Origin: Escherichia phage vb_EcoM-VR5
Length of the DNA: 64,000 nucleotides
Direction: 5' to 3' (one strand)
Sequence record: NC_028881.1
Shown here: positions 3,012 through 44,814 of the stretch, piece by piece
How the letters are laid out: each line of letters begins with the position of its first letter
Numbering within the stretch: the stretch's first letter is position 1
Program-made: the position numbers and the translations under genes
Notes under the pieces: generated by a model
The model's input: the letters and a program-made list of their open reading frames with translations, nothing else
Told to the model about the DNA's origin: nothing
Databases searched by the model: none

Positions 3012-4829
3012 TTACGACATCCAAGCCTTACGAAGCTGTGGGTCGTTTCCAAGGAGCATTTCGAACTGGTCTTTCCAATCTTCAGGTAATTGGACTACAT
3101 CAAATTTAGGGTCTTGAATCATTCGGCGGTATTCAGCTTTCTCAAGAGAACCGAGACCTTTGATATAACGAATAGAATGTTTAGGCAACTTATCCTTAGC
3201 TTCATTATAAGACGGAACATCATAGAACCATTCCTGTTCTTTACCAACCTGCGCAATAATTACCGGAGTTTTACAGAAACGAATTCGTCCCTGTTCGAAC
3301 AATTCAGGCCATTGGCTAAAGAAGGCTAATAACGAAGGATAAATCGAACCAGTACCATCCACATCAGCGTCAGTCATGATAGCGATATTATGATAGTTGG
3401 TTTTATTTGCAGGTTCGCCAATAATTAATCCTGTGATTGCACAGATATCAAATAGTTCCTTGTTCTTCATGATATCAGCAGCAGTCATACCCCAGGTATT
3501 CATAACCTTACCGCGTAATGGATAACCACCTTGGAGGTCTTTATTACGAACTTCAATGAAAGGACCCATTGCAGAATCACCTTCGGTTAAGAACAGAGTC
3601 GTATCAGCATCTTTGCCGTACATATTGGCTTTAATATGCTTATGGACCTTGGCTTTAGAAGCTTTCTTAGCAGCTTTAGTTTCGGCTGCCTTTTCAGCTG
3701 CTAATTTACGTGCTAAAGCGGCTTCGATAATAGGCATAATCAACCCATCAACTTTAAGAATAGCTTGAGCAATTTTCTTAGCATCAATTTGGATATGATT
3801 ACGAATCTCGCCAAATGGAGAGGTCAAACGTTCTTTAGTCTGGGAATCAAAACGCATATTGCTCATATCACGAATGAACATAACCATAGTAAGGCATTCT
3901 TTAACACGGGCCTTGGTTACTTCGATTCCACGATATTTCTTTTTAATACCTGGCAGAAGGTGCTCACAAATATCATCGAATACACATTCAACATGGTGGC
4001 CGCCATTCTTAGTATGGATATTGTTTACATACGTCAGTTGACGGAACCCGTCCGGAGAAGGAGTAAATGCCATCGAAACGTTATCAGTTTCTTGGATTAC
4101 AAAGTCTTCACCAAATTGCTTAGCATACTTTTTAAAGTTACCATCTACTTTTTTACCGTTAAAAGTAAATTGGATATCCGGATAAATTACGGCCAGTGTT
4201 TGAAGTCGGTCTAATGTAATATCCAGATAAATTTGTGACAGACTATTTTCTTCAAAATGATTAAAGTCTGGGGTGAATACAACCGAAGTACCTTTACCTT
4301 TAGATTTCTTGGTAGACCAACCTTTGTTTTCCATTCCATTGGAACAGTTAACTGTAATCTCATTCTCGCCATCAGAGGTGATGCCTGTGAACAAAACAGA
4401 GAAGATATTAGTTAAACTACTACCGACACCATTCATGCCGCCTGTCTTACGCTCTGCGTCATCTCCAAAGTTACCACCAGCCTTTGGAATAGTCCACGCA
4501 GCTACAGGGCCCGGAATCTGTTCACCGTTTTGATCGGTAACCATTGCTTGAGGAATACCACGGCCATTATCAGAAACTGAAACCTGGTTATTCTTAATTT
4601 GGACATCAATTTTATTTGCGAATTTAAAGCTTGTACGAATAGCTTCATCCACAGAGTTATCGATGATTTCGTCAATCAGTTTTACCAGCCCAGGAACATA
4701 GTTGACCTGAGTAAAATTACCGAACAGAAAACGTCCGTGAGCTTCATTAGCACTTGAACCGATATACATCCCACTACGTTTTTTGATATGTTCAATGTCG
4801 GACAGTACTTTAATTTCATTCTTAATCAT
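3012..4829 (-). CDS. 39: DNA topoisomerase II large subunit (GyrB-like; fused gene 39+60 form)
   Basis: 605-aa ORF; GHKL ATPase and TOPRIM-type motifs; RBS GAGGAAA; length fits fused 39/60 as in phages lacking the gene 60 bypass. Confidence 0.9.
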   Translation of the reverse strand: MIKNEIKVLSDIEHIKKRSGMYIGSSANEAHGRFLFGNFTQVNYVPGLVKLIDEIIDNSVDEAIRTSFKFANKIDVQIKNNQVSVSDNGRGIPQAMVTDQNGEQIPGPVAAWTIPKAGGNFGDDAERKTGGMNGVGSSLTNIFSVLFTGITSDGENEITVNCSNGMENKGWSTKKSKGKGTSVVFTPDFNHFEENSLSQIYLDITLDRLQTLAVIYPDIQFTFNGKKVDGNFKKYAKQFGEDFVIQETDNVSMAFTPSPDGFRQLTYVNNIHTKNGGHHVECVFDDICEHLLPGIKKKYRGIEVTKARVKECLTMVMFIRDMSNMRFDSQTKERLTSPFGEIRNHIQIDAKKIAQAILKVDGLIMPIIEAALARKLAAEKAAETKAAKKASKAKVHKHIKANMYGKDADTTLFLTEGDSAMGPFIEVRNKDLQGGYPLRGKVMNTWGMTAADIMKNKELFDICAITGLIIGEPANKTNYHNIAIMTDADVDGTGSIYPSLLAFFSQWPELFEQGRIRFCKTPVIIAQVGKEQEWFYDVPSYNEAKDKLPKHSIRYIKGLGSLEKAEYRRMIQDPKFDVVQLPEDWKDQFEMLLGNDPQLRKAWMS

Positions 4830-4853
4830 GTTATTTCCTCATGTAGTGGAAGA

Positions 4854-4880
4854 ATTATATCCCAAGCTATTAAAAGCAAA
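4854..4880 (-). promoter_or_regulatory. MotA-box middle promoter upstream of gene 39
   Basis: TTTGCTTTTA box, 11-nt spacer, -10 TATAAT. Confidence 0.5.
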
Positions 4881-4896
4881 AAGGGCCGAAGCCCTT
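4872..4896 (-). terminator. rho-independent terminator (UUCG-loop hairpin + U tract)
   Basis: aagggc-ttcg-gccctt + TTTTTGCTTTT. Confidence 0.6.
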
Positions 4897-5164
4897 ATTC
4901 AAATCGAATGGTGGAGTTTTTGAACAGTAGCCCAGAGCACACGGTACCTTTAACAGTTTTACCTGTAGGACCGACAGCAATGAATCCTGTACGTTGGAAG
5001 TCATCTTCAGAACACCCAAACAAACTATAACCGGTGATTTGGATTTGCTCAAAACCATTGGCATTCAAAACCTTAGTAGCATTATCAGCGTCAGTACACC
5101 CGACCAGCGAAAAAGCAAGAACCAGTGCAGCAATAGTACGATTTACGTATTTCATATTTCTCAC
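4895..5164 (-). CDS. putative lipoprotein (89 aa)
   Basis: signal peptide with lipobox LVGC. Confidence 0.6.
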   Translation of the reverse strand: MRNMKYVNRTIAALVLAFSLVGCTDADNATKVLNANGFEQIQITGYSLFGCSEDDFQRTGFIAVGPTGKTVKGTVCSGLLFKNSTIRFE

Positions 5165-5335: not shown

Positions 5336-5731
5336 TTATTCCTTAAAGTGTGCTTTCAACATCTGGAAAACTGACCAGGCTTCTTCATTATTACTAATGG
5401 TGATTTTAGTCAATGGGAATGCAGTGATTTCTGGAGCTTCAGTTTCTTCATCGTCAGGTACACCATCTTCAGCCCATTCTTCATCACAGTCAACTTCGAC
5501 CATTTCGGTAAAGAATTTACGCTCAGTGGGATATAAAATCATGTCTTTATTATCGCCATAAGCTAGGTCTACGTTAGTCACATTACCTGCTGTGATAGTC
5601 CTTGGACAAAAACCTTCAGCTTCAATAATAGCATCCGCTATACCGCTATTGTTGATAACTCTACGACGGAATTCCGCTTCAGACACCTCATCTTTAAAAT
5701 AATACCACTTACCAACTTCAAATTTAGACAT
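5336..5731 (-). CDS. hypothetical protein (131 aa; start trimmed to ATG with RBS GGAAGGAGA)
   Basis: ORF; track N-terminus overlaps upstream gene, internal ATG at 5731 has strong RBS. Confidence 0.6.
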   Translation of the reverse strand: MSKFEVGKWYYFKDEVSEAEFRRRVINNSGIADAIIEAEGFCPRTITAGNVTNVDLAYGDNKDMILYPTERKFFTEMVEVDCDEEWAEDGVPDDEETEAPEITAFPLTKITISNNEEAWSVFQMLKAHFKE

Positions 5732-5942
5732 TGTAAGTCTCCTTCCAGAAGTCTGGACCAATTGAACTGATTTCACGGAACACACCGTAAATAGGATTTT
5801 TATCATCTTGATTTTCGTACACATAAACTGAAGTCAAGTGAGAGCGAGCATCAGAGTGTTCTTTCTGTACTACAACCAAATCTGGATTGAACAGAACGTC
5901 TTCAAATTCTTCACGGGTCGAGTTCACGGTAACTTTAGCCAT
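5724..5942 (-). CDS. hypothetical protein (72 aa)
   Basis: ORF with RBS GAGGAAA; promoter motif upstream. Confidence 0.55.
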   Translation of the reverse strand: MAKVTVNSTREEFEDVLFNPDLVVVQKEHSDARSHLTSVYVYENQDDKNPIYGVFREISSIGPDFWKETYNV

Positions 5943-6022: not shown

Positions 6023-6589
6023 TTACGCACGATGAATATTAGCATACTCAACAATAAAGCTTTCAGGAACTACCTTAAAGGTTCCAGTGAATACGATGTT
6101 ATAAAGCTTAACACCTTCTTCAACCCACTGGTCGGTGATGTAGCCAGACATGCTAGTAGTTTCGTAAGTACCAAACGGTTCATCAGTGTATTCAAAAGGC
6201 TTAGGAGAAACGAAAAAGACACCAGCACCTAATTTCCATTTAAAATCAACACCAACATGAGACAGGTCAATGGTTTCAACTTCTTGAGCCACTACACCAC
6301 GAATATCATTGCTTTCGCACACATACCCATCGTGTGATTCAACTTCTTCAACCACAGGAGCGACACGTCCAGTAAATTCAGTTGATTCTAGGAATTTAGC
6401 ACGAACGTAAGCAAATTGTGTTTCTGTCTGACCATTTTTAGGAATAATACGTACTTTTACTTCAGCGTTTTCAAGTCTGACACCTTCTTTAAGTTGAATA
6501 CTAACAACTTCAACTAAACAGCCTGCGGCTTTTGAACGAGATTGTTTGGATACGCGAACGATACCGCCGATATCTGAAATAGTAATCAT
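6023..6589 (-). CDS. hypothetical protein (188 aa), C-terminal domain paralogous to next gene
   Basis: ORF; C-terminus ITDQWVEEGVKLYNIVFTGTFKVVPESF resembles C-terminus of ORF 6663-7412. Confidence 0.65.
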   Translation of the reverse strand: MITISDIGGIVRVSKQSRSKAAGCLVEVVSIQLKEGVRLENAEVKVRIIPKNGQTETQFAYVRAKFLESTEFTGRVAPVVEEVESHDGYVCESNDIRGVVAQEVETIDLSHVGVDFKWKLGAGVFFVSPKPFEYTDEPFGTYETTSMSGYITDQWVEEGVKLYNIVFTGTFKVVPESFIVEYANIHRA

Positions 6590-15187: not shown

Positions 15188-15844
15188 TTATTTCCTATTA
15201 AAGTTTTCTATCATTCGTCGATAACAAATATCAGGATATCCATTATCGACAGCTATTTTATTAAATTTGGTGCGTTTAGGTTTATTATTATAAACCCATA
15301 ATTCATAAAGCGCATCATAACTATCCCATATTTCTCCTCGCCTAGGATTTGGTAAACCGTATCGAGGTGAATTTTTACCGCTAAATCTTCCTTTTCGAGC
15401 TTTACTCATATTAGCCTTGGCTTCATCGGATATAATTTTATCTTTATGAGCTAGACGCATTTTGGCTTTAGTTTCTTCTGGGGTCTTTTTGCCTTTAATC
15501 CATGACGGCTTGCCATATCTAGGATTATTTTCACCTGTAACTAATAGTGAATTATTTTCCCTTAATGATGCTATAGTTCTGCTAGTTAATTTAACTCCTT
15601 TATTATATCTCATTAAATTAACGGCATGATGCAGACCTTTTACTTCAGGATACATTTTTGTTAAAAGCCTATGGGCTATAAAGTGCTCTCTTGGTAATAA
15701 AGCCACCAAATTATTTTTATCATCGGAACCATTCATACATTTGGGTACAATATGGTGTTCTTCTGTATAATATGGTAAGGACCGCTTGGTACCTCTTAAT
15801 TTTCCATTAGATATTAATTCATTGTATATTTTTTCATAGTTCAT
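15188..15844 (-). CDS. HNH homing endonuclease (freestanding, Mob-like) with NUMOD-type C-terminal DNA-binding repeats
   Basis: 218-aa ORF; HNH motif EEHHIVPKCMNG...NLVALLPREHFIAH; AT-rich; no SD upstream. Confidence 0.8.
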   Translation of the reverse strand: MNYEKIYNELISNGKLRGTKRSLPYYTEEHHIVPKCMNGSDDKNNLVALLPREHFIAHRLLTKMYPEVKGLHHAVNLMRYNKGVKLTSRTIASLRENNSLLVTGENNPRYGKPSWIKGKKTPEETKAKMRLAHKDKIISDEAKANMSKARKGRFSGKNSPRYGLPNPRRGEIWDSYDALYELWVYNNKPKRTKFNKIAVDNGYPDICYRRMIENFNRK

Positions 15845-35743: not shown

Positions 35744-36762
35744 CGTGTAACCTCATTATAAAGTTGGGCAGCCATAGTCTTAAGGGCTTTAAGGTCATCT
35801 TCAGTATGGCCATCAGGAAGAGCATCGATATAATCATACATCATATCCAAGAGCGACTTAACTTCGTCTTCCTCTTCAGAATCATCAATATCAACGCTGT
35901 TATCTACCTTAGACACAATACGTAAAGAGTGGACCACCTTTTCAAGTTCAGATTCAAACTTAGTAAGCCCGTCATCGATTTTATCGACTATAACACGAAC
36001 TGCAATATTTGTAAAATCTTTGTAATCGATGGTTGCATTAGGATAATGAATCTTACGATGCCAACAGGTTTCATTGATAACAAAATCCATTTTATGGGTT
36101 TCAGTATCGAAAATCCAGAAACCGCGAGGGTCGTTCTCATCGCCTGCAGTAAGGGTCCATGGAGTACCGATGTACTTAACGTTTGCGGCATCAGAAATAG
36201 TATGGAAGTGGCCAGACCAAACTTGCTTATACTTTTTAAGGAAATCAGGTTCTAAACCGTGAGATTTCATTCCTTTATAGAAATAGAACCCATTTAATTC
36301 CCAGTGACCAATACAGAAATCTGCTGTAGTATTTTTGATATGTTCCATGATATCAGTCGTGTTTTCTTCACACATCCACGGAATCAAATCAATTTCGGTG
36401 CCATCAAAGTTTACTGTTGTAGGTTTCTCGATAACCTTGATATGGTCATATTTACCGAGAACTTCAGAAGCGGCATTCGGCGTTAAGGTATTTTTGTAGT
36501 GCATATCATGATTACCAACAACGGTATACATGGTAATGCCATTAGCTTTAAGCAAATCAGAGATTTCGCGAGCGAATTCCATACACTTATGGGTAATTGC
36601 TTTACGAACGTCAAAGATATCACCGTATTGAATCCATACAGTAATGCCATTTGCTTTAGAATAATCAATAGCGTCTTGGATACCTTGGCGTTGGATATTT
36701 TGTACCCACACATCATCGGCTTTCACTCCAAGGTGCCAGTCACCTGTGTTTAATATTTTCAT
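35740..36762 (-). CDS. 47: recombination endonuclease subunit gp47 (Mre11/SbcD-like)
   Basis: start at MKILNTGDWHLG (phosphoesterase motif); track ORF has 66-aa upstream extension. Confidence 0.85.
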   Translation of the reverse strand: MKILNTGDWHLGVKADDVWVQNIQRQGIQDAIDYSKANGITVWIQYGDIFDVRKAITHKCMEFAREISDLLKANGITMYTVVGNHDMHYKNTLTPNAASEVLGKYDHIKVIEKPTTVNFDGTEIDLIPWMCEENTTDIMEHIKNTTADFCIGHWELNGFYFYKGMKSHGLEPDFLKKYKQVWSGHFHTISDAANVKYIGTPWTLTAGDENDPRGFWIFDTETHKMDFVINETCWHRKIHYPNATIDYKDFTNIAVRVIVDKIDDGLTKFESELEKVVHSLRIVSKVDNSVDIDDSEEEDEVKSLLDMMYDYIDALPDGHTEDDLKALKTMAAQLYNEVTR

Positions 36763-36902
36763 AAGCCAAGCACCGTTATCGCAATGCAAAATAAAATTAT
36801 TGAAATGAACCCGTCTGGAGTGGAAAAGAATCCTATCCAACAAGCTCGTGTGAATGTGTAGAATGCCATGAATAACACGACATATCCTAAAAATAATTCC
36901 AT
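36759..36902 (-). CDS. small hydrophobic peptide (47 aa), translationally coupled to gene 47
   Basis: hand-translated MELFLGYVVLFMAFYTF...; RBS GAGGAGAA; stop overlaps gene 47 ATG (ATGA). Confidence 0.45.
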   Translation of the reverse strand: MELFLGYVVLFMAFYTFTRACWIGFFSTPDGFISIILFCIAITVLGL

Positions 36903-36922
36903 ATGTTCTCCTCAGTTGGTTC

Positions 36923-36949
36923 ATTTTATCATCCCGAATATAAAGCAAA
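36923..36949 (-). promoter_or_regulatory. MotA-box middle promoter upstream of 47.1-like ORF / gene 47
   Basis: TTTGCTTTA box, 12 nt, -10 TAAAAT. Confidence 0.45.
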
Positions 36950-36970
36950 AAAGGAAGCACTAGGCTTCCT
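36941..36970 (-). terminator. rho-independent terminator upstream of gene 47 region
   Basis: aggaagc-ctag-tgcttcct + TTTTTTGCTTT. Confidence 0.55.
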
Positions 36971-37133
36971 TTCCAATTAATACACCGTACAGAGGTTCAC
37001 GATTAGACGTGAACTTGATGGGTTTATAGGTAATAGTACCTTCATTTTCTGCTTTAATACGAGCGGCTTCAAATTGAAGCATCATCTCATTTTTGTCAGA
37101 TTTAATCTTATCAAAATCCGTCGAACTCGTCAT
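36960..37133 (-). CDS. small hypothetical protein (57 aa)
   Basis: hand-translated MTSSTDFDKIKSDKNEMML...; SD AAGGGG; stop overlaps terminator hairpin. Confidence 0.35.
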   Translation of the reverse strand: MTSSTDFDKIKSDKNEMMLQFEAARIKAENEGTITYKPIKFTSNREPLYGVLIGKEA

Positions 37134-37375
37134 TCATATGACCCCTTAAAAATCTGGATGTTCGTCATTCATTAGCCAGCCGTCCATGTTATCATCGCTG
37201 CCACCACTTCTTAAGTTGATGAGAATCCACCCAAACCTTGGCTACAGGCTCAATCTGAAAAATTCCATCAGATAACCTGCCTACCATTTTGTATTCGGTT
37301 TCAGACTGCTTAATACAGATATTACCGTACGAACGAAGTCTGAAAGCGGCTCCAATAAGAAGCCGTTTAAAGGGT

Positions 37376-37687
37376 TTATTTACTAGCGCCATTGATAATT
37401 TCCCAAATCTGTTTACGTGTAGTTTCCCACATAACTCTAACGATTTCATCGGTAGTCGGTTGTCGGTAAATACCACGCAATTTAATTATAGCATATTTGT
37501 AAGCTTCGAAATTGTTTTCGAGAACAGCACCCTGTGCATGTTTATTAAGACGTGTAATTTCACGAGCATTCTTTTTAAGGATTTTAGCAGCCTGTGAATC
37601 GGCTTCTTTAGCATTGTTCTCTTCTAAACGCTTCTGAGCTTCTTCAATCTGCTTATCAGTCAATTGAGAAATGTCGGTGCTTTGCAT
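37376..37687 (-). CDS. hypothetical protein (103 aa)
   Basis: ORF with RBS AAGGA. Confidence 0.55.
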   Translation of the reverse strand: MQSTDISQLTDKQIEEAQKRLEENNAKEADSQAAKILKKNAREITRLNKHAQGAVLENNFEAYKYAIIKLRGIYRQPTTDEIVRVMWETTRKQIWEIINGASK

Positions 37688-37688
37688 A

Positions 37689-37952
37689 TTAATCCTTGTA
37701 ATTCAATTTTATATAAAAATCTTCGTCAGTAACGTGATAGTTATAAGTTAATGTTCCTTTTTCAGTTTTAATTTCTACCGAATCGGGGTGTTTTGGGTCT
37801 ATTACAATAGGAAGTTTGGCAATATCCTTAAGATACATTTTAAGAACATAAGGAATTGCCGAATACTCTCCATCTACTTCTTCTAAAAGGCCTACCAGGT
37901 TAATCTTGAGTTCCATATAAAAAATCCAGCTCACCAACTTTAGATTCAGCAC
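37689..37952 (-). CDS. hypothetical protein (87 aa)
   Basis: ORF. Confidence 0.5.
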
Positions 37953-38457
37953 TCTTATCAGACCCTGGCGCTTTAACTAAAGAGGTTTCATACTGAGTCA
38001 TTTTGTCGTAAATATCCTGGATAAAAGTTTCATCTGCGATACCTACCATGTCGTCGTCATTAGCGTCATAAACGTTATGGACGAAGTAGCTATATTTCTT
38101 TGCCATTTCTTTACGTTCTTTCTTGATACGCTGAACAAAGGCATTAAAACAAGCCATAGTGATATATGCATGTGGGTTGTCGTATTTTGTTTCGTCGAAG
38201 TTGTGAAGACCTTTAATAGAAGCTTCGATTCCATCAGCAATCATTTCTTGCTTCCAGGATTGGGTATATCCGGAGAAGTTAAAACGTTTACTTAGGCCTT
38301 CAGCAATGAGCATAATAGCCAAGCCGATAACGTCGTTCTGACGAACTATTTTATTAGGGTCGGTATTTTCTCGGAGCTCTGTTTTCCACTGGGTAATGGC
38401 TTTCAGAAGCTCCTTATTATTTACATAGTTATTTTTAGTCAGTTTAATTTCGGTCAT
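37900..38457 (-). CDS. 55: late sigma factor gp55
   Basis: 185-aa ORF; long stretches match my recollection of T4 gp55 ([44 protein letters not shown]). Confidence 0.9.
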
Positions 38458-38480
38458 TGTTACCTCAGATAACTCAAATC

Positions 38481-38520
38481 ATAGGTCTATTATATCATAG
38501 TATTTGGAGACCCGTTTAAA
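38481..38520 (-). promoter_or_regulatory. extended -10 promoter upstream of gene 55
   Basis: TGATATAAT followed by AGACCTATG. Confidence 0.4.
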
Positions 38521-38523
38521 GCA

Positions 38524-38787
38524 TCAACGGAGTAAGCAATAAGCCTGAAATACTGTTTCAAGGATTTGTGTGAACTCAGAATAAGAAATTGTATCAGTGC
38601 ATCCGTGTTCAGACATGTATCCGCAAAATTCTTTAAAAAGACCCGGATATTCACGATGGTTGTATTTGGAGATGTGAGACTTCCATACTAAAGAAGTCTC
38701 GCCACAAACAAACTCTACATCCATACAGTTATCTATTAAGAAAAATCCGAGACCTTCGTAAGCGAGGGTGCTAGATATAGGTTTCAT
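38524..38787 (-). CDS. hypothetical protein (87 aa)
   Basis: ORF. Confidence 0.55.
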   Translation of the reverse strand: MKPISSTLAYEGLGFFLIDNCMDVEFVCGETSLVWKSHISKYNHREYPGLFKEFCGYMSEHGCTDTISYSEFTQILETVFQAYCLLR

Positions 38788-39056
38788 TGTAGGAATCGGG
38801 CTCCTTCTAGTGCATCATCAAGGTTATCAAACTCATCAACGTAATCAATACCACCAACTTCATCCTTTGCATACAGCCAGTACTGTTTAAATTCATATTC
38901 GATAATAAAGTGGTCGCCTTCGATTTGAAGTACGCCAGCATCATTTTCACATACGGTATAACCAACCAGTCGAATGTCGTTCAAGAGTTCGTTTTTCATA
39001 GTAATTGTTTCCAGGTTCTTCTCGTAATTAGAGAGTTTAATTTTAGGTAAAGTCAT
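38784..39056 (-). CDS. hypothetical protein (90 aa)
   Basis: ORF, ATGA-coupled. Confidence 0.55.
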   Translation of the reverse strand: MTLPKIKLSNYEKNLETITMKNELLNDIRLVGYTVCENDAGVLQIEGDHFIIEYEFKQYWLYAKDEVGGIDYVDEFDNLDDALEGARFLQ

Positions 39057-39382
39057 TTCGCAGCCTTAACAATTTTCAGGTCAACGAATTTTTTCTTACG
39101 TTGGTTTTTCATACGTCGAATAGTTTTATCTGTGATTTCACCCGGGTGCCAAGCTTTAGATTCAACACCAAAGGCAGCAACATCAAACTCGTCAAGGATA
39201 TATTGAACCAGGATTTCACGAATACCGTTATGACCGATTTTTTGGTCTTTAGAGCGCATGATTGGTAACAGTTCAGCAACCCATTGGTCAAGAATCTGAG
39301 GAGTTACAAAGCCAGTTTTCATCAGTTCGTTAACTTTATCGAAAGCGAAAGAGTTCAGTACGTTTTTGATTGCTTGTGACAT
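39053..39382 (-). CDS. hypothetical protein (109 aa)
   Basis: ORF, RBS GAGGAAA. Confidence 0.55.
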   Translation of the reverse strand: MSQAIKNVLNSFAFDKVNELMKTGFVTPQILDQWVAELLPIMRSKDQKIGHNGIREILVQYILDEFDVAAFGVESKAWHPGEITDKTIRRMKNQRKKKFVDLKIVKAAK

Positions 39383-39453
39383 AATAATTTCCTCAGTTTA
39401 TTAAAATTTATAATCCGTAGGACCATTATACTCTGGTCCCAAGAGTTTGTAAA

Positions 39454-39654
39454 CTATTTTTGTGCTAATGCACCTTTCCAGCCTTCATACATCATTCCGG
39501 CTGAAAGTAACAAAGCGCCTGAACAGCTTGAGTGTTTGTGATTCCAAAACCAATTCAGAAAAACTTCGTCATCAATACCTTGAGCTATCATATTTTCAAA
39601 GAACTGACGACGAGCTTCGGCAATACGTTGTGACAGTAAAGATTGTGGATTCAT
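39454..39654 (-). CDS. hypothetical protein (66 aa; start at ATG with RBS GAGGAAA)
   Basis: ORF. Confidence 0.5.
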   Translation of the reverse strand: MNPQSLLSQRIAEARRQFFENMIAQGIDDEVFLNWFWNHKHSSCSGALLLSAGMMYEGWKGALAQK

Positions 39655-39661
39655 ATTTTCC

Positions 39662-39955
39662 TCAGCTATAACGATAACATTCGTTTGATTTACGTTTTGC
39701 AACTCGATGAGAAGTATTGTAATCAGGTTCATCGTCGTTGTAAACATCTTTTTTCAGCTTTCTCACTTCTTTACGAAGCTGACGATTCATTTCATTCTTA
39801 ACTTCGGAATCAACACCACCCATACGTTTCCACTTATCAGAACGGAAGATATTCTCTTCAACTTGTTCCTGACTTACACCGTCCGGTGCTTTACGACGTC
39901 CTGAATAACAAAAATCTTTTACAGACAATTCTTTACGACGAATAGTTTTACCCAT
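39662..39955 (-). CDS. hypothetical basic protein (97 aa)
   Basis: ORF. Confidence 0.5.
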   Translation of the reverse strand: MGKTIRRKELSVKDFCYSGRRKAPDGVSQEQVEENIFRSDKWKRMGGVDSEVKNEMNRQLRKEVRKLKKDVYNDDEPDYNTSHRVAKRKSNECYRYS

Positions 39956-39957
39956 AG

Positions 39958-40212
39958 TTACCTCAGCAGTTTGTATCCAATAAGATTTTTGATATACTGA
40001 ATATCTTTGATATCCAAATCCAACTTAAGGTCTTTCAGACGTTCAGCCAGAGTAAGAAATGTTACTCGCTTCCAATTTTTAACAGGGCAGCAATAAGTCT
40101 TAGGCCCATTTGCAATTTCAATATTTTTATCTGTGATGGTGAGAAAAATCAGGCGCTCATCATCAAGGTTCAGGGTGATGACATTTTTCATTGCATGTAA
40201 TTTCAGGCTCAT
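39958..40212 (-). CDS. hypothetical protein (84 aa)
   Basis: ORF. Confidence 0.5.
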   Translation of the reverse strand: MSLKLHAMKNVITLNLDDERLIFLTITDKNIEIANGPKTYCCPVKNWKRVTFLTLAERLKDLKLDLDIKDIQYIKNLIGYKLLR

Positions 40213-40391
40213 GATTTAATTTCCTTTGCTACTGAACAAAACACAGAGCGGTCACACACCATCAACGGGGCATCAGGCCAATTCAAAGGTTGATACCAGA
40301 CATCCAGACTTGATACTTTAGTTACTTGAACAGGATAGCCGTTTACTGAAAAATACTGGTCAACTTTAATTTCTTTATCTTGAATAGTCAT
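40209..40391 (-). CDS. hypothetical protein (60 aa)
   Basis: ORF with promoter motif upstream. Confidence 0.5.
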   Translation of the reverse strand: MTIQDKEIKVDQYFSVNGYPVQVTKVSSLDVWYQPLNWPDAPLMVCDRSVFCSVAKEIKS

Positions 40392-40407
40392 AATGTTCTC
40401 CTCATGT

Positions 40408-40449
40408 GTTGATAGGATAGACTATAACACACAAGGAGAGGAAGTAAAC
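40408..40449 (-). promoter_or_regulatory. early promoter family member
   Basis: GTTTAC ... TATAGTCTATCCTATCAAC. Confidence 0.5.
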
Positions 40450-40450
40450 A

Positions 40451-40768
40451 CTAATCTTCAATTAAATCTCGGTCATAACCAAGTTCAATCAAAAGTGTCT
40501 TAAAAGAAGGAATATTTTCTATTTTCTTATTATCAACAAAGATAACAGGATAACGTATAGCTAAGCTCTTGAAGCCGGCACGTTTGGCCAATGATACTAT
40601 AAGAGGCTTGTCATATACTGCACCTGACGGCGTCTGGTTAATCACAGGATAGAAAGTATATTGAATGGAAAGGGAATTTAGGAGCGATAGAACTGCAATG
40701 CACCCTGGACAGCGCATGACTGTCTCAGGGATACCGTAGATTTCGATTTTAGTTGACTTTTGGTCCAC
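40451..40768 (-). CDS. glutaredoxin-like redoxin (CPGC active site); GTG start
   Basis: IEIYG...CPGC...YPVIFVD glutaredoxin-fold motifs; SD AAGGAG 9 nt before GTG; track ORF N-terminus is an extension. Confidence 0.5.
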   Translation of the reverse strand: MDQKSTKIEIYGIPETVMRCPGCIAVLSLLNSLSIQYTFYPVINQTPSGAVYDKPLIVSLAKRAGFKSLAIRYPVIFVDNKKIENIPSFKTLLIELGYDRDLIED

Positions 40769-41048
40769 AGGAAATAACTCCTTGGTAGTCCCAAGTTTTG
40801 ATAACTTCTTCATCATCAATGGTTTTATACGGGACATAAACCTGAATAAGGAAACCGGTGTCATCGAAAGAGAAATAAACCGTTGGTTTGATTCCATGAA
40901 TCTCAGATAGAGCATAGATATCTTTAAGGTCTTCTTCTTTATCAGCAAAGAATTCCGGGTTAAGGTCGCAGTCATGGAAGTACCAGTCATCACCGAACTT
41001 GTCCCATTCGGTCCAATTGGTAGCTACATATTCTTCGAAACGTTTCAT
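40749..41048 (-). CDS. hypothetical acidic protein (99 aa)
   Basis: ORF, ATGA-coupled to upstream gene. Confidence 0.55.
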   Translation of the reverse strand: MKRFEEYVATNWTEWDKFGDDWYFHDCDLNPEFFADKEEDLKDIYALSEIHGIKPTVYFSFDDTGFLIQVYVPYKTIDDEEVIKTWDYQGVISCGPKVN

Positions 41049-41260
41049 TCTTTCACCTTCAGCATTTTTGCGATAACACTATGAATAGCCTGGATACGTT
41101 TGTTGAACTCAGACTCTTCAAGACCCTTTTCAGTACTCAGCCATCCGATGATAACAAACAGCAATCCGAACGGAATAGCCAGGATTAAAAGGCACACGAT
41201 AAACAAGACCAGTGTAATGTTAGCCAGAATATCAGAAGCAGCATTACGAAAATTATTCAT
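41045..41260 (-). CDS. small membrane protein (71 aa)
   Basis: hydrophobic ORF. Confidence 0.55.
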   Translation of the reverse strand: MNNFRNAASDILANITLVLFIVCLLILAIPFGLLFVIIGWLSTEKGLEESEFNKRIQAIHSVIAKMLKVKE

Positions 41261-41385
41261 AGGATAACCCAGGTATTATTGACAACAAATAACCATAGAG
41301 CTGGATACTCTACACCCATACGACGGATAATATCATTCATAGCTTCAGTTAGAGCATAGAACGTGTAACCATAAAAATTAATCAT
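41257..41385 (-). CDS. small hypothetical protein (42 aa)
   Basis: hand-translated MINFYGYTFYALTEAMNDIIRRMGVEYP...; ATGA overlaps with gene 49 stop and next ORF start. Confidence 0.35.
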   Translation of the reverse strand: MINFYGYTFYALTEAMNDIIRRMGVEYPALWLFVVNNTWVIL

Positions 41386-41855
41386 TTAAGCGATTTCCTC
41401 AGTTGTTTTTTAAATGAATCAACCATTTGTTTCTTAGTGTCGGATTCATTATAAGTCATTCCATGTGAAAGCATTTCAGCAATCATTTCTTCCTTACCTA
41501 ATCTACTGAACTCTTTGGTTTTATCAGGAACGAAATTCGGGTGGATATTATTTTCAGTGTAATCGGTTTTCAGATAGACTAGCAAATTCTCTAACCATTC
41601 GAGGTAGTCAACGTTTTGACCTTTCAAACCAGAACGGTTGAACTTATGCTTCATTTGTCCCTCTGCAGCATTGCACAGGTTACATAGTAAACCACGAACC
41701 TTACCAGCTTTTGGCCCGTTCAATTCATGGTCGTGGTCAAGGTGGTTACTTTGAACATCAGGGTTTAATTCACGTTTACAAATCAAACACTTACCATCCT
41801 GTGCATCATAAAGTTTTTGTTTTTCTTCTTTGTATAATTTGCCAGTCAACAACAT
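41382..41855 (-). CDS. 49: endonuclease VII (Holliday junction resolvase, gp49)
   Basis: 157-aa ORF near-identical to recalled T4 endo VII (MLLTGKLYKEEKQK...CLIC...HLDHDH). Confidence 0.92.
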   Translation of the reverse strand: MLLTGKLYKEEKQKLYDAQDGKCLICKRELNPDVQSNHLDHDHELNGPKAGKVRGLLCNLCNAAEGQMKHKFNRSGLKGQNVDYLEWLENLLVYLKTDYTENNIHPNFVPDKTKEFSRLGKEEMIAEMLSHGMTYNESDTKKQMVDSFKKQLRKSLK

Positions 41856-41860
41856 AATAA

Positions 41861-41885
41861 ACCCTTACCTGTATTAGATAAGGGT
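41861..41885 (-). promoter_or_regulatory. hairpin overlapping translation initiation region of gene 49
   Basis: accctta-(11 nt)-taagggt stem next to AATAAATA element. Confidence 0.4.
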
Positions 41886-42066
41886 ATTTATTAAATATTA
41901 TAAAACGAGCGATGCAACCGTTTAAATTGTCGAATCATCTTTTTAGTAGGATGAGTATATAATCCTACGCAGGTGACCATAAACCGGTCAGTAGGACTTC
42001 CTTTGATAAGAAGTTTCCAGACCTTACCACCATTTAACTTTTCGGTATAGACTAATACAGTTTTCA

Positions 42067-42240
42067 TTAGAACGCCTTATCAGAAAAGCGAAGTTGAGCT
42101 TCAAGCCAATGGATATAATCAGCCGCGGCAAAAATTAAATCAGATTCTTCATCAGATAACTTACGGGAATCCGACAGCTCGTAAAGAGAATGTTCAATCA
42201 GACGACCTTTATGTCGGCCAACTTCAATTTTGGTACTCAT
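42067..42240 (-). CDS. small hypothetical protein (57 aa)
   Basis: hand-translated ORF with SD ACGGAG; low certainty. Confidence 0.3.
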   Translation of the reverse strand: MSTKIEVGRHKGRLIEHSLYELSDSRKLSDEESDLIFAAADYIHWLEAQLRFSDKAF

Positions 42241-42356
42241 ACCCAAACTCCGTATCGATTAATTCATTGTTTGAAGGTTCATTATACTCTATTTCGGAAT
42301 CGTTGTAAACCGGTTCCTCTGGCTCGGTAGTTTCCCACCGAGCGACATACCATGGC

Positions 42357-42665
42357 TTAACGGTCACACCACCAACTACTTACTTCAAAATCGGGTTCAC
42401 CGTCTTCCCAGAACCAGGGGCCAACCGGATGCCAATCGCCATGCTTATCTTCTTCATATTCTTCAGATTCAAGTCCAACGTATTGCCATTGGACTTCATA
42501 AGCAATGTCGCCGATTACAACAGTGTTCTCGCCATACGGGTTAGCCACAACAAAGTCAATACCTTCTGCTTTAGCCAACCAAACCATGTATTCATATAGC
42601 TTATATTCTAGGTCATCTTCGGTACCGTCACCTAGAAAAATGGTCTGTTCGTTTAATTCAATCAT
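42357..42665 (-). CDS. hypothetical acidic protein (102 aa)
   Basis: ORF. Confidence 0.55.
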   Translation of the reverse strand: MIELNEQTIFLGDGTEDDLEYKLYEYMVWLAKAEGIDFVVANPYGENTVVIGDIAYEVQWQYVGLESEEYEEDKHGDWHPVGPWFWEDGEPDFEVSSWWCDR

Positions 42666-42850
42666 AATTCCACCATAAATTCAAATAGCTGGTCACGTAC
42701 ACAAGTATCAGTCCAACCCCATTCGTTGGCTTCTTCTTTTAACCAATCCGGGAGATTTGCCAATACGATTTCTTTACTAGGCGCAGGAGTATCAAACTCT
42801 CTTGCAAACTCTCTTGCGCAGGTTTCATAAGCTGTATCAAATTCGGTCAT
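42662..42850 (-). CDS. hypothetical protein (62 aa)
   Basis: ORF, ATGA-coupled. Confidence 0.5.
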   Translation of the reverse strand: MTEFDTAYETCAREFAREFDTPAPSKEIVLANLPDWLKEEANEWGWTDTCVRDQLFEFMVEL

Positions 42851-43014
42851 TTAAAGTTCCAGAATGAAGCACCAACCAGAAATAAAGGCCAACAAATCAT
42901 AGACGTCAGCCACCAACAAAAATCACCTACACCGAAATCATCTAATTTAGCTAGGGTCTTAGCATAACCAATACCGATGATAATATACAAAACACCCAAC
43001 ATTAATTCAATCAT
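42847..43014 (-). CDS. small membrane peptide (55 aa)
   Basis: hand-translated MIELMLGVLYIIIGIGYAK...; ATG overlaps nrdC stop, stop overlaps next ATG. Confidence 0.4.
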   Translation of the reverse strand: MIELMLGVLYIIIGIGYAKTLAKLDDFGVGDFCWWLTSMICWPLFLVGASFWNFK

Positions 43015-43274
43015 TTGAAATATTCTCGCAGTTCAGTGAATCCACCAATATGACTTCCGTCAGGAGCAAACACTTGTGGCATAGTCAAGCCAATTTGGGA
43101 TTCGCGACCAAGTTTAGCCAGGAGTTGAGCAATCTTCTCATCATCAAACACGCCTTTTTCTGGCATAACGTTCACGAACTCGTAAGGTTGTTTCTTAACA
43201 TCCAAAAAACGTTTAGCATTATCACAGAAAACACAACGATGAATATTTGAATCATAACCATAAATTTTAAACAT
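43011..43274 (-). CDS. nrdC: thioredoxin (NrdC)
   Basis: 87-aa ORF; CVFC active site; near-identical to recalled T4 NrdC. Confidence 0.88.
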   Translation of the reverse strand: MFKIYGYDSNIHRCVFCDNAKRFLDVKKQPYEFVNVMPEKGVFDDEKIAQLLAKLGRESQIGLTMPQVFAPDGSHIGGFTELREYFK

Positions 43275-43275
43275 T

Positions 43276-43512
43276 TTAAATTCCTAATACTTGTTTGAAG
43301 GTCTCAGTATAATCAGGGTATTGACCGGTTTGTTCTTTATGTTTGTCCATAATATCATAAACTTCTGAACGCACATTATTATACGAGCGAGTTAAAGCGG
43401 ATTTCAATACTGAATAACTATCCGGAAATTTACCGTGTTCTTTATAATAGGCCAGAGTTAATTCACGGACCGCCTTATCAGCAGTCTCAAGATATTCTTT
43501 ACGCTTTGCCAT
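43276..43512 (-). CDS. hypothetical protein (78 aa; trimmed start)
   Basis: ORF. Confidence 0.45.
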
Positions 43513-43810
43513 TTTCGTCTCGCTCAAATTTGTGTTTACAATGACGGCATTTATAACGAAGATTGCTAGTCTGCCAATGCACCAGTTGGACCTGTTCAGT
43601 TCCGCATTCCGGACAGTTAGGAACATTCTTGGAAGCTTGTTCACGACGACTAACCATAGCCATCACAGCATCCCAATTAACAGGGCTATAATCATCGCAC
43701 CCATGAATTTTTCCAATCAATTCAACTTCATCGTCCTCGGCTTCTTTAATAAATTTCAATAAACCTGTATTAGAGGCTGCAGCAATATCTTCTCTTAAAC
43801 GATTTTTCAT
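43499..43810 (-). CDS. zinc-ribbon protein (103 aa)
   Basis: CPECG...CRHCKH. Confidence 0.55.
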
Positions 43811-44814
43811 TTCAGCAGCTCCAGAGCGTGTTCAAGACGGTCTAAACGATTAGTGGACTCTTCCCAAAGTTTCTTAGCAGCAGTATATTGTCCAGTCAGT
43901 TTTTTGTTAATAGCAAGGGCGTCTTTATATGCTTTTTCCAGAGCAATTATTTCCGGCAACTTGGATTTAGTAATTGGTGTAGGGGCCATGATAGGGCTAT
44001 TCAAGTCATTAATCAAGTCTTCTAATGTAGCAGGCTCTTTATCAGTGTTCACAATTTCCTCACATTTTTCTTGGTAAATTTCGGCGTCAGTTTTTGGAAC
44101 AGCACATTTGATTTCGCGAACTTTTACTAGGACTTCATATCCTTTCCAGCCTAAGGTGCGTTTGATTTCTTGAGTCTCATATTTCTCTACCGTATCCATC
44201 AGGGCTAAAGCCTGTTCGACGGTATTCAGAGTTTCATAAGAAATATCTTGGTACTTTACAACTTCCGCTTCATCTTTAGGTTTCCGGTTTGGTGACCAGA
44301 TAATAGAAATAAGCACCCTTCCTTTATAAGCATTTGTTTTAATCATGCAATTCGCCAATGGGTGGATAGTACGACCGTCACCGGCAACTACAGTTTTAGT
44401 GGCTGCTTTGAGAATTAATGCAGAGTTAGCCTTAAATTCGGCGGCCCAACGTTGTGGAAATAGGGTACTAAGGTCCATACCTTTAATTTTGATATACCCT
44501 TTTAAAACATCACCAAACCATTTGTAGTTAACATGAGCCGGACTACGATATTTCTCTTTGCCAAAGTCGGAAAGGAGGTCCTTATTGACCAAGCGTGAAA
44601 GCAGTCGAGACCCTTTAAAAGTTTCAGTGATATCAGAAATAAACAAACGGCCCGCAATCTTTTCGATTTCAGATTTAAAACACCGTGACAAATCTTCATC
44701 AATTTGGTCAACCCATTTACTGATATTAGAAACTATTACCTCATACGGCGTTAATGGAGGCGTAGTGGTAGTAATATACGCAGTGAAGGCTTTGATATAT
44801 TCGTTACGTGACAT
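43807..44814 (-). CDS. hypothetical protein (335 aa)
   Basis: ORF from ATG with RBS GAGGAGAA; promoter motif upstream. Confidence 0.65.
   Translation of the reverse strand: MSRNEYIKAFTAYITTTTPPLTPYEVIVSNISKWVDQIDEDLSRCFKSEIEKIAGRLFISDITETFKGSRLLSRLVNKDLLSDFGKEKYRSPAHVNYKWFGDVLKGYIKIKGMDLSTLFPQRWAAEFKANSALILKAATKTVVAGDGRTIHPLANCMIKTNAYKGRVLISIIWSPNRKPKDEAEVVKYQDISYETLNTVEQALALMDTVEKYETQEIKRTLGWKGYEVLVKVREIKCAVPKTDAEIYQEKCEEIVNTDKEPATLEDLINDLNSPIMAPTPITKSKLPEIIALEKAYKDALAINKKLTGQYTAAKKLWEESTNRLDRLEHALELLK

What the first reader, a model, noticed from the sequence alone, without database searches (positions are those of the whole stretch)
38524..41381. Gene 55 to gene 49 interval holds only small ORFs and a GTG-initiated glutaredoxin-like gene
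As I recall, T4 carries the anaerobic ribonucleotide reductase genes nrdD/nrdG in this interval. Here about 3 kb encodes only proteins under 110 aa, including a CPGC glutaredoxin-like protein whose only plausible start is a GTG with SD AAGGAG that overlaps the preceding gene by 19 nt.
Basis: partly seen in the sequence, partly recalled or inferred. Interest (0 to 1): 0.4.

Follow-up and report, generated by a model that had tools for sequence, protein, structure and literature searches.

The report
JS98-type phage lacks anaerobic reductase genes
This is the normal gene 55–gene 49 region of a JS98-like (Dhakavirus) T-even phage: this lineage cleanly lacks the anaerobic ribonucleotide reductase genes nrdD/nrdG but keeps the small redoxin NrdH, whose GTG start is the same as in T4, so the finding is correct but ordinary.

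Summary
Window 38524..41381 (minus strand) holds 11 tightly packed genes of 42–109 aa (95% coding) between late sigma factor gene 55 and endonuclease VII gene 49. There is no nrdD or nrdG.

The window is a Dhakavirus, 94% identical to phage ESCO10 and 90% to JS98. At least 59 phage records show the same arrangement. tblastn with T4 and RB69 NrdD/NrdG finds nothing in the window, in essentially all of JS98 (a 920-bp gap inside gene 46 was not fetched), or in the complete ESCO10 genome. A published survey already lists JS98, JS10, IME08 and VR7 as class I RNR only.

The absence is scarless. In RB69 a 2277-bp nrdD–nrdG block lies between two ATGA stop/start overlaps. The window has a single ATGA, joining gene 49 to a 42-aa ORF (phrog_3350) whose homologue follows nrdG in RB69.

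The CPGC protein is the T4 NrdH orthologue (60% identity). Its GTG start is ancestral: in T4 and VR7 that GTG is the only possible start. Residues upstream of the internal ATG are invariant and form strand β1 of a glutaredoxin fold, whose best structural match is T4 glutaredoxin.

Verdict: already known, low interest.

The parts
37900..38457 (-). gene 55, late-transcription sigma factor (left anchor of the interval)
   Evidence: 185-aa ORF. Annotated gp55 in JS98 and dhaeg at the homologous place.
38524..38787 (-). RB69 ORF072c-like small gene (87 aa, DUF7200)
   Evidence: Pfam PF23830 E 4.5e-32; phrog_1822; JS98 annotation.
38784..39056 (-). 55.1 homologue (90 aa; could instead start at the ATG at 38999, giving 71 aa as annotated in JS98)
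   Evidence: tblastn with T4 55.1, E 2.8e-19; Pfam DUF5495 on residues 20-88.
39053..39382 (-). 55.2 homologue (109 aa, the largest protein of the interval)
   Evidence: 66% identity to T4 55.2; Pfam DUF7570.
39425..39453 (-). sigma-70-like promoter match (TTTACA-17-TATAAT, 11/12) in the 55.3/55.2 gap
   Evidence: This is a consensus match only; the total number of promoter-like sites in the region is not above the shuffled expectation.
39454..39654 (-). 55.3 homologue (66 aa)
   Evidence: 71% identity to T4 55.3; Pfam DUF5490.
39655..39661 (-). site where gene 55.4 is missing relative to T4, JS98, ESCO10 and VR7
   Evidence: No tblastn hit for T4 55.4 in the window, but hits in JS98 and ESCO10. 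126 bp are absent. In ESCO10 the missing segment is flanked by ATGAAT repeats.
39662..39955 (-). 55.5 homologue (97 aa)
   Evidence: 75% identity to T4 55.5; Pfam DUF5499.
39958..40212 (-). RB69 ORF079c-like gene (84 aa, DUF7290)
   Evidence: Pfam PF23962 E 1.4e-41; JS98 annotation.
40209..40391 (-). 55.6 homologue (60 aa)
   Evidence: 54% identity to T4 55.6; phrog_2283.
40421..40448 (-). sigma-70-like promoter match (TTTACT-16-TATAGT, with TG) in the nrdH/55.6 gap
   Evidence: consensus match only.
40451..40768 (-). nrdH orthologue: 105-aa glutaredoxin-fold protein with a CPGC motif, starting at GTG
   Evidence: 60% identity to T4 NrdH over residues 2-102, E 1e-37. phrog_22 'thioredoxin domain' E 1.3e-13. 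AlphaFold model pLDDT 90. Best PDB fold match is T4 glutaredoxin 1ABA/1AAZ. Start-codon analysis.
40778..40783 (-). Shine-Dalgarno AAGGAG, 9 nt upstream of the nrdH GTG
   Evidence: Sequence read directly. The upstream 20-25 nt are identical in JS98, dhaeg and ESCO10 and near-identical in VR7 and RB69.
40749..41048 (-). RB69 ORF082c-like gene (99 aa, phrog_2749); its last 20 nt overlap the nrdH start
   Evidence: phrog_2749 E 3.9e-49. No Pfam or NCBIfam family and no CxxC motif. Present in RB69, JS98 and VR7; absent from T4.
41045..41260 (-). 55.8 homologue (71 aa, predicted membrane protein)
   Evidence: 42% identity to T4 55.8; phrog_1930.
41257..41385 (-). 42-aa ORF (phrog_3350); it occupies the place between 55.8 and gene 49 where other T-even phages have nrdG-nrdD upstream of it
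   Evidence: phrog_3350 E 4e-22. tblastn finds it in only 58 records, all appearing to be Dhakavirus or Gaprivervirus. A homologous unannotated 37-aa ORF lies between nrdG and 55.8 in RB69, phrog_3350 E 2.5e-25.
41382..41385 (-). ATGA junction: gene 49 stop overlapping the start of the 42-aa ORF; the point where the nrdD-nrdG block is absent
   Evidence: Joining RB69's two ATGA junctions in silico (removing 2277 bp) reproduces the shape of the window and VR7 junction, TTAAATGATTAA.
41382..41855 (-). gene 49, endonuclease VII (right anchor of the interval)
   Evidence: 88% identity to T4 gp49 over 157 aa, E 7e-95.
43011..43274 (-). nrdC (T4 glutaredoxin/'thioredoxin') homologue, the second small redoxin nearby
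   Evidence: ORF; weak glutaredoxin-family hits in NCBIfam; annotated NrdC at the homologous position in JS98.

Best explanation
The window comes from a JS98-like T-even phage (genus Dhakavirus, Straboviridae). The gene 55-gene 49 interval is the conserved T-even block of small early/middle genes: 55.1-55.8 plus three RB69-type ORFs. It lacks the class III (anaerobic) ribonucleotide reductase genes nrdD and nrdG, as does the whole Dhakavirus/Gaprivervirus lineage. The most likely history is one clean loss of the nrdD-nrdG block in the common ancestor of those two genera. The endpoints sit at the two ATGA stop/start overlaps that flank the block in relatives, so gene 49 became directly coupled to the small phrog_3350 ORF that used to follow nrdG. 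These phages would then make deoxynucleotides with their own class Ia NrdAB (present in JS98) and, without oxygen, would depend on the host enzyme. The CPGC protein is the orthologue of T4 NrdH. It is a glutaredoxin-fold dithiol protein translated from a GTG behind a strong Shine-Dalgarno sequence inside the end of the upstream gene, exactly as in T4, RB69 and VR7. Shown here: the absence of nrdD/nrdG, the synteny, the junction anatomy, the orthology, the position of the start and the predicted fold. Inferred: the direction of the event (loss, not gain), the recombination mechanism, reliance on host NrdDG, and the redox function of NrdH.
For: Identity of the phage: 94.2% nucleotide identity to ESCO10 over 61.4 kb and about 90% to JS98. 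59 records cover at least 80% of the 55-to-49 query in one collinear match. JS98, dhaeg and VR7 annotations show the same gene order.

Absence of nrdD/nrdG: T4 and RB69 carry them between 55.8 and 49. tblastn with the T4 and RB69 proteins gives no hit at E<=1 in the window, in the fetched JS98 sequence (all but 920 bp inside gene 46), or in the complete ESCO10 genome. JS98 annotation lists only nrdA/nrdB. Dwivedi et al. 2013 Table S1 lists JS98, JS10, IME08 and VR7 as class I only.

Junction: RB69's nrdD-nrdG block is 2277 bp between two ATGA overlaps. Deleting it in silico gives ...TTTAAAATGATTAAATTG..., against ...GCTTAAATGATTAATTTT... in the window and VR7. The ORF downstream of the junction is homologous in both (phrog_3350).

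Loss rather than gain: NrdG occurs in 2272 phage records, including T4-like phages of Escherichia, Klebsiella, Serratia, Enterobacter and Vibrio and the Krischvirus Phi1.

NrdH: 60% identity to T4 NrdH. In T4 and VR7 the GTG is the only ATG/GTG/TTG in the ORF upstream of the conserved core, and in RB69 the only nearby one. E9, Y11, G12, I13, P14 and V17 are invariant in 26 homologues, while M18, the alternative start, is not conserved. The AlphaFold model (pLDDT 90) places strand beta1 at residues 8-12 and the CPGC motif at the N-terminus of helix 1. The best Foldseek hit in the PDB is T4 glutaredoxin, TM 0.83-0.84, rmsd 2.0-2.3 A.
Against: Only 64 kb of this particular phage is available. Absence of nrdD/nrdG from the rest of its genome is inferred from relatives that are 90-94% identical, not observed. 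The direction of the event rests on parsimony across genera, without a rooted tree. The microhomology at the junction is only 4 bp (ATGA), which is weak evidence for a specific recombination mechanism. NrdH falls below Pfam's glutaredoxin gathering score (18.5 against 22.9 bits) and has no sequence-level match in the PDB. No expression or activity data were available.
Confidence: 0.92

Rival explanations
1. nrdD/nrdG are not lost but moved: this phage carries them elsewhere in its roughly 170-kb genome, outside the window.
For: Only 64 kb of the genome can be seen. T-even genomes do shuffle modules.
Against: ESCO10 in full (94% identical) and essentially all of JS98 have no NrdD/NrdG similarity anywhere (tblastn E<=1). 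A published table lists four relatives as class I only. The window itself has none.
Confidence: 0.02
2. The short arrangement is ancestral, and the nrdD-nrdG block was inserted in the T4/RB69-type lineages. The difference would then be a gain there, not a loss here.
For: The block has clean cassette-like borders. In T4 it is associated with mobile elements: mobC and the nrdD intron with I-TevII. Class III RNR genes are widely transferred among phages.
Against: nrdG is present in many T4-like genera, including the distant Krischvirus Phi1 and Vibrio phages. It sits at the same locus in T4 and RB69. RB69 has the block without any mobile element. Absence is confined to the 58 records that carry the long form of the phrog_3350 ORF next to gene 49, apart from independent losses reported in Acinetobacter phages.
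Confidence: 0.06
3. NrdH starts at the internal ATG (40717; 88 aa beginning MRCPGC), as in the original JS98 annotation, and the GTG is not used.
For: JS98 record EF469154 annotates nrdH as 267 nt. ATG is the commoner start codon.
Against: There is no Shine-Dalgarno sequence before that ATG (upstream ...CCCTGAGACAGTC). Met18 is replaced by G, W, S or H in homologues, and T4, VR7 and RB69 have no ATG there. Six invariant residues and strand beta1 of the fold lie upstream of it. The VR7, dhaeg and ESCO10 records annotate the 105-aa form.
Confidence: 0.02

Closest known systems
Escherichia phages JS98, JS10, IME08 and ESCO10 (genus Dhakavirus), gene 55-gene 49 region
   Same: Same gene order and content: ORF072c-like, 55.1-55.3, 55.5, ORF079c-like, 55.6, nrdH, ORF082c-like, 55.8, small ORF, 49. 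No nrdD/nrdG. 90-95% nucleotide identity.
   Different: The window lacks gene 55.4, which is present in JS98, ESCO10, dhaeg and VR7. It is not identical to any record in the collection; the best match is 94%.
Phage T4 (Tequatrovirus), 55-49 region
   Same: Homologues of 55.1, 55.2, 55.3, 55.5, 55.6, nrdH, 55.8 and 49 in the same order. nrdH starts at GTG behind a Shine-Dalgarno sequence.
   Different: T4 has nrdG, mobC, and nrdD with a group I intron and I-TevII (3.9 kb) between 55.8 and 49. T4 lacks the three RB69-type ORFs. Its copy of the small phrog_3350 ORF is broken by a 1-nt deletion.
Phage RB69 (Mosigvirus), 55-49 region
   Same: Same set of small genes, including ORF072c, ORF079c and ORF082c. 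nrdH overlaps ORF082c and starts at GTG. A phrog_3350 ORF lies upstream of 55.8.
   Different: RB69 carries an uninterrupted nrdD-nrdG block of 2277 bp between the two ATGA junctions.
T4 glutaredoxin ('T4 thioredoxin', NrdC; PDB 1ABA/1AAZ)
   Same: Same glutaredoxin fold, with a CxxC motif at the start of helix 1. It is the best Foldseek match of the NrdH model: TM 0.83-0.84 normalised to the target, rmsd 2.0-2.3 A.
   Different: Only 17-18% identical. NrdH is 18 residues longer, with a predicted extra beta-hairpin (residues 43-52) and a conserved C-terminal D-x-D-L-I-E-D tail. NrdC is a separate gene at 43011..43274.
Bacterial NrdH-redoxin (E. coli NrdH; NCBIfam TIGR02194)
   Same: Shares the name, the small size and a glutaredoxin-like fold with two cysteines.
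   Different: No match to TIGR02194 even at E<=1. The phage protein therefore carries the name without being a demonstrable member of that family.

Membership tests
T-even phage NrdH orthologue group (T4 nrdH) | Full-length sequence similarity to T4 NrdH | tested here: met
   60% identity over T4 residues 2-102, E 1e-37. 1337 phage records align over at least 80% of the protein.
T-even phage NrdH orthologue group (T4 nrdH) | Conserved position between 55.6 and 55.8 | tested here: met
   Same position in T4, RB69, JS98 and VR7.
T-even phage NrdH orthologue group (T4 nrdH) | R-C-x-G-C motif and GTG initiation behind a Shine-Dalgarno sequence | tested here: met
   C20, G22 and C23 are invariant. 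GTG with AAGGAG or AAGGAA upstream in the window, JS98, dhaeg, ESCO10, VR7, RB69 and T4.
Glutaredoxin/thioredoxin fold | beta-alpha-beta-alpha-beta-beta-alpha topology, CxxC at the N-terminus of helix 1, proline before strand beta3 | tested here: met
   Model with pLDDT 90: E8-12, H21-32, E38-41, H54-64, E75-78, E81-83, H86-95. CPGC at residues 20-23. P74 invariant. Top PDB fold matches are all glutaredoxins.
Glutaredoxin (Pfam PF00462) | Score above Pfam's gathering threshold | tested here: not met
   18.5 bits against a cut-off of 22.9, E 0.0024. Two homologues do carry a precomputed PF00462 hit.
Glutaredoxin/thioredoxin (function) | Thiol-disulfide oxidoreductase activity, and electron donation to a ribonucleotide reductase | not testable with these tools
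Bacterial NrdH-redoxin (NCBIfam TIGR02194) | Match to the family model | tested here: not met
   No hit at E<=1.
Class III (anaerobic) ribonucleotide reductase system NrdD/NrdG | Presence of a glycyl-radical reductase gene (nrdD) and a radical-SAM activase gene (nrdG) | tested here: not met
   No tblastn hit with T4 or RB69 NrdD/NrdG in the window, in JS98 or in ESCO10.
Genus Dhakavirus (JS98-like T-even phages) | High nucleotide identity and collinearity with JS98 and other members | tested here: met
   94% to ESCO10 and about 90% to JS98, with 96-98% of a 24-kb query covered.

The most novel reading that the evidence does not exclude
The most novel reading still open has two parts. First, NrdH is kept intact in two genera that lost NrdD/NrdG, which suggests it is not a dedicated partner of the anaerobic reductase, although reviews group it with that enzyme. 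It would instead serve the class Ia NrdAB enzyme or another thiol-dependent step. Second, gene blocks in T-even phages may be lost without scars by recombination between the short ATGA/ATGAAT start-codon junctions. Both the nrdD-nrdG absence and the 55.4 absence in this window have such borders.
Probability: 0.35. Interest if true: 0.25.

Novelty: already known. Interest (0 to 1): 0.08.

Why it matters
It matters little beyond annotation. The result confirms that JS98-type coliphages, some of which are used in phage-therapy cocktails, carry no anaerobic ribonucleotide reductase. They must therefore rely on their aerobic enzyme or on the host's class III enzyme in the anoxic gut. It also shows that the 88-aa NrdH in the JS98 reference record is probably truncated at the N-terminus. 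Finally, it gives two clean examples of scarless gene-block loss at translationally coupled junctions.

Tried and rejected
- **Remnants of nrdD/nrdG at the junction.** I searched with tblastn and short-word blastn against T4 and RB69. Nothing of nrdD or nrdG remains. The only similarity belongs to the small phrog_3350 ORF.
- **Is the 42-aa ORF a decayed fragment of nrdD or nrdG?** Rejected. It matches a conserved phage family and has an intact homologue downstream of nrdG in RB69.
- **The original JS98 papers.** PMC532421 is not held in the library. The Petrov 2010 and Sullivan 2010 reviews do not state the RNR status of JS98. The Dwivedi 2013 supplement does.
- **Literature on T4 NrdH function.** One search found nothing.
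- **Sequence search of NrdH against the PDB.** No hits. NCBIfam gave only noise.
- **The 'glutaredoxin' label on the ORF082c-like gene in the dhaeg record.** Not supported: no CxxC motif and no Pfam or NCBIfam family.
- **T4 late promoter motif TATAAATA.** None in the interval.
- **A 5-bp hairpin (40795..40781) overlapping the nrdH Shine-Dalgarno sequence**. Too short to distinguish from chance, and T4's upstream sequence shows no obvious equivalent; not pursued.
Full report
**What is in the interval.** All genes in window 36000..44000 run on the minus strand. Gene 55 is 37900..38457. Gene 49 is 41382..41855 and is 88% identical to T4 endonuclease VII. Between them lie eleven ORFs of 87, 90, 109, 66, 97, 84, 60, 105, 99, 71 and 42 aa. 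They cover 95% of 38524..41381. Most are joined by 4-nt ATGA-type overlaps. Base composition is flat at 36-40% G+C, with no sign of foreign DNA.

**Which genome this is.** Megablast against 50,697 phage records gives T-even phages of the genus Dhakavirus as the best matches. ESCO10 is 95% identical over the interval, and JS98, JS10, WG01, QL01, dhaeg and others are about 90% identical. 59 records cover at least 80% of the 4-kb query in one collinear match. Over the whole window, ESCO10 aligns along 61.4 kb at 94.2% identity. No record is identical. The JS98, dhaeg and VR7 annotations give the same gene order: RB69 ORF072c-like, 55.1, 55.2, 55.3, 55.4, 55.5, ORF079c-like, 55.6, nrdH, ORF082c-like, 55.8, a 126-bp ORF, then 49. 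Pfam and PHROGs place nearly every window ORF in a family of T4-like small proteins of unknown function.

**The missing nrdD/nrdG.**
T4 has nrdH, 55.8, nrdG, mobC, nrdD (with intron and I-TevII) and then 49. RB69 has nrdH, ORF082c, 55.8, nrdG, nrdD and 49, with no mobile elements.
- tblastn with T4 NrdG, both T4 NrdD exons, and RB69 NrdD/NrdG finds nothing in the window.
- I assembled the JS98 genome from five fetched pieces, leaving only a 920-bp gap inside gene 46, and the whole ESCO10 genome (171,100 bp). Neither contains any NrdD/NrdG similarity at E<=1.
- JS98 is annotated with only the aerobic nrdA/nrdB.
- The supplementary table of Dwivedi et al. 2013 (PMC3653736) lists JS98, JS10, IME08 and VR7 as 'nrdB-nrdA, class I' only.

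The absence is thus a known property of the lineage, not a rearrangement.

**Anatomy of the absence.**
- The 42-aa ORF at 41257..41385 belongs to phrog_3350.
- By tblastn it occurs in only 58 records, all appearing to be Dhakavirus or Gaprivervirus, and always next to gene 49.
- RB69 has an unannotated 37-aa ORF, MIKLNYIMDTINDMIFHFGPEFYSQYSLVLINVWLIN, between nrdG and 55.8. It matches the same PHROG at E 2.5e-25. T4's copy is broken by a 1-nt deletion in a run of T.
- In RB69 the gene 49 stop overlaps the nrdD start (ATGA), and the nrdG stop overlaps the start of this small ORF (ATGA). The two overlaps are 2277 bp apart.
- In the window and in VR7 there is one ATGA, where the gene 49 stop overlaps the small ORF's start.
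- Joining RB69's two junctions in silico gives TTTAAAATGATTAAATTG. The window reads GCTTAAATGATTAATTTT.

So the nrdD-nrdG block is absent without a scar, and translational coupling is preserved.

**Direction of the event.** NrdG is found in 2272 phage records, including T4-like phages of many host genera and the distant Krischvirus Phi1. Loss in the common ancestor of Dhakavirus and Gaprivervirus is therefore the parsimonious reading. This is inference, not a tree-based result.

**The redoxin and its start codon.**
- The 105-aa product of 40451..40768 is 60% identical to T4 NrdH.
- In T4 the nrdH frame opens only three codons before the annotated GTG and contains no other ATG, GTG or TTG. In VR7 it opens two codons before the homologous GTG. 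In both, GTG is the only possible start.
- In RB69, JS98, dhaeg, ESCO10 and the window, the same GTG follows CCAAGGA(G/A) at an 8-9-nt spacing.
- In an alignment of 26 homologues (52-94% identity), E9, Y11, G12, I13, P14 and V17 are invariant. Met18, the alternative start used in the JS98 record, varies among M, G, W, S and H.
- An AlphaFold model built on that alignment has mean pLDDT 90.1. It places strand beta1 at residues 8-12, CPGC at the N-terminus of helix 21-32, and the invariant P74 before strand 75-78.
- Foldseek against the PDB returns T4 glutaredoxin (1ABA, 1AAZ) as the best match: TM 0.83-0.84 normalised to the target and rmsd 2.0-2.3 A. Other glutaredoxins follow.
- Upstream in-frame ATGs (40813, 40816 and further) lack a Shine-Dalgarno sequence and lie within the preceding gene.

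The overlap with the upstream gene is 20 nt including its stop codon.

**Family membership of NrdH.** By sequence the protein falls just below Pfam's glutaredoxin threshold (18.5 against 22.9 bits). It does not match NCBIfam's bacterial NrdH model and has no sequence match in the PDB. It is a glutaredoxin-fold protein and the T4 NrdH orthologue. It is not a demonstrable member of the bacterial NrdH-redoxin family.

**Function.** NrdH is intact, with all invariant positions, in lineages that have no NrdD/NrdG. This argues that it is not tied exclusively to the anaerobic enzyme, although the Petrov 2010 review groups it there. What it actually reduces cannot be decided with these tools.

**Verdict.** Both describe the standard, already documented architecture of JS98-type phages. 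Nothing here is new in kind.

Noticed in passing
L008 (RB69 NC_004928) 6372..6485, minus strand; L003 (T4 NC_000866) ATG at 6454, minus strand: RB69 has an unannotated 37-aa ORF (phrog_3350, E 2.5e-25) between nrdG and 55.8, overlapping the nrdG stop by ATGA. The T4 reference sequence has the same ORF broken by a 1-nt deletion in a T run (TTTT in T4, TTTTT in RB69). That stretch is annotated as intergenic in both records.
   Followed up: partly
window 39655..39661 (between 55.5 and 55.3): Gene 55.4 (43 aa) is absent from this phage but present in T4, RB69, JS98, ESCO10, dhaeg and VR7. 126 bp are missing. In ESCO10 the missing segment is flanked by ...AAATATGAAT and ...TTTAAATGAAT, so this is a second scarless deletion at start-codon repeats.
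   Followed up: partly
L001 (JS98 EF469154) 5669..5935: The JS98 reference annotation starts nrdH at the internal ATG (88 aa, MRCPGC...). That cuts off 17 residues, including six invariant ones and strand beta1. VR7, dhaeg and ESCO10 annotate the 105-aa GTG form.
   Followed up: yes
L010-L013 (ESCO10 OM386655), whole record: Product names in this GenBank record do not fit the genes. For example, the nrdH CDS is labelled 'double-stranded DNA binding protein', a 294-nt CDS is labelled 'inhibitor of prohead protease', and the DNA polymerase-sized CDS is 'hypothetical'. The names appear to have been assigned in reversed order relative to the coordinates.
   Followed up: no
L002 (dhaeg MN850609) 4708..5004; window 40749..41048: The ORF082c-like gene upstream of nrdH is labelled 'glutaredoxin' in dhaeg. 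It has no CxxC motif and no Pfam or NCBIfam match, only phrog_2749 of unknown function. The label is probably carried over from the overlapping nrdH.
   Followed up: partly
window 15188..15844, minus strand: A 218-aa ORF resembles the T4 MobC HNH homing endonuclease (31% identity over 137 aa, E 2.6e-14). By rough coordinate correspondence it sits about where JS98 has a 290-bp gap between genes 56 and 61. JS98 has no significant MobC-like hit; ESCO10 has three.
   Followed up: no
L008 (RB69) 5590..5862: RB69 NrdH is only 90 aa. It ends ...NDKKQRYCRV instead of the conserved ...FK..LI.LGYD.D.IED tail, which suggests a frameshift or truncation near its C-terminus in that record.
   Followed up: no
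window 40781..40795, minus strand: A 5-bp hairpin, CTTGG-GACTA-CCAAG, whose 3' arm overlaps the first bases of the nrdH Shine-Dalgarno sequence AAGGAG. It is too short to distinguish from chance.
   Followed up: no
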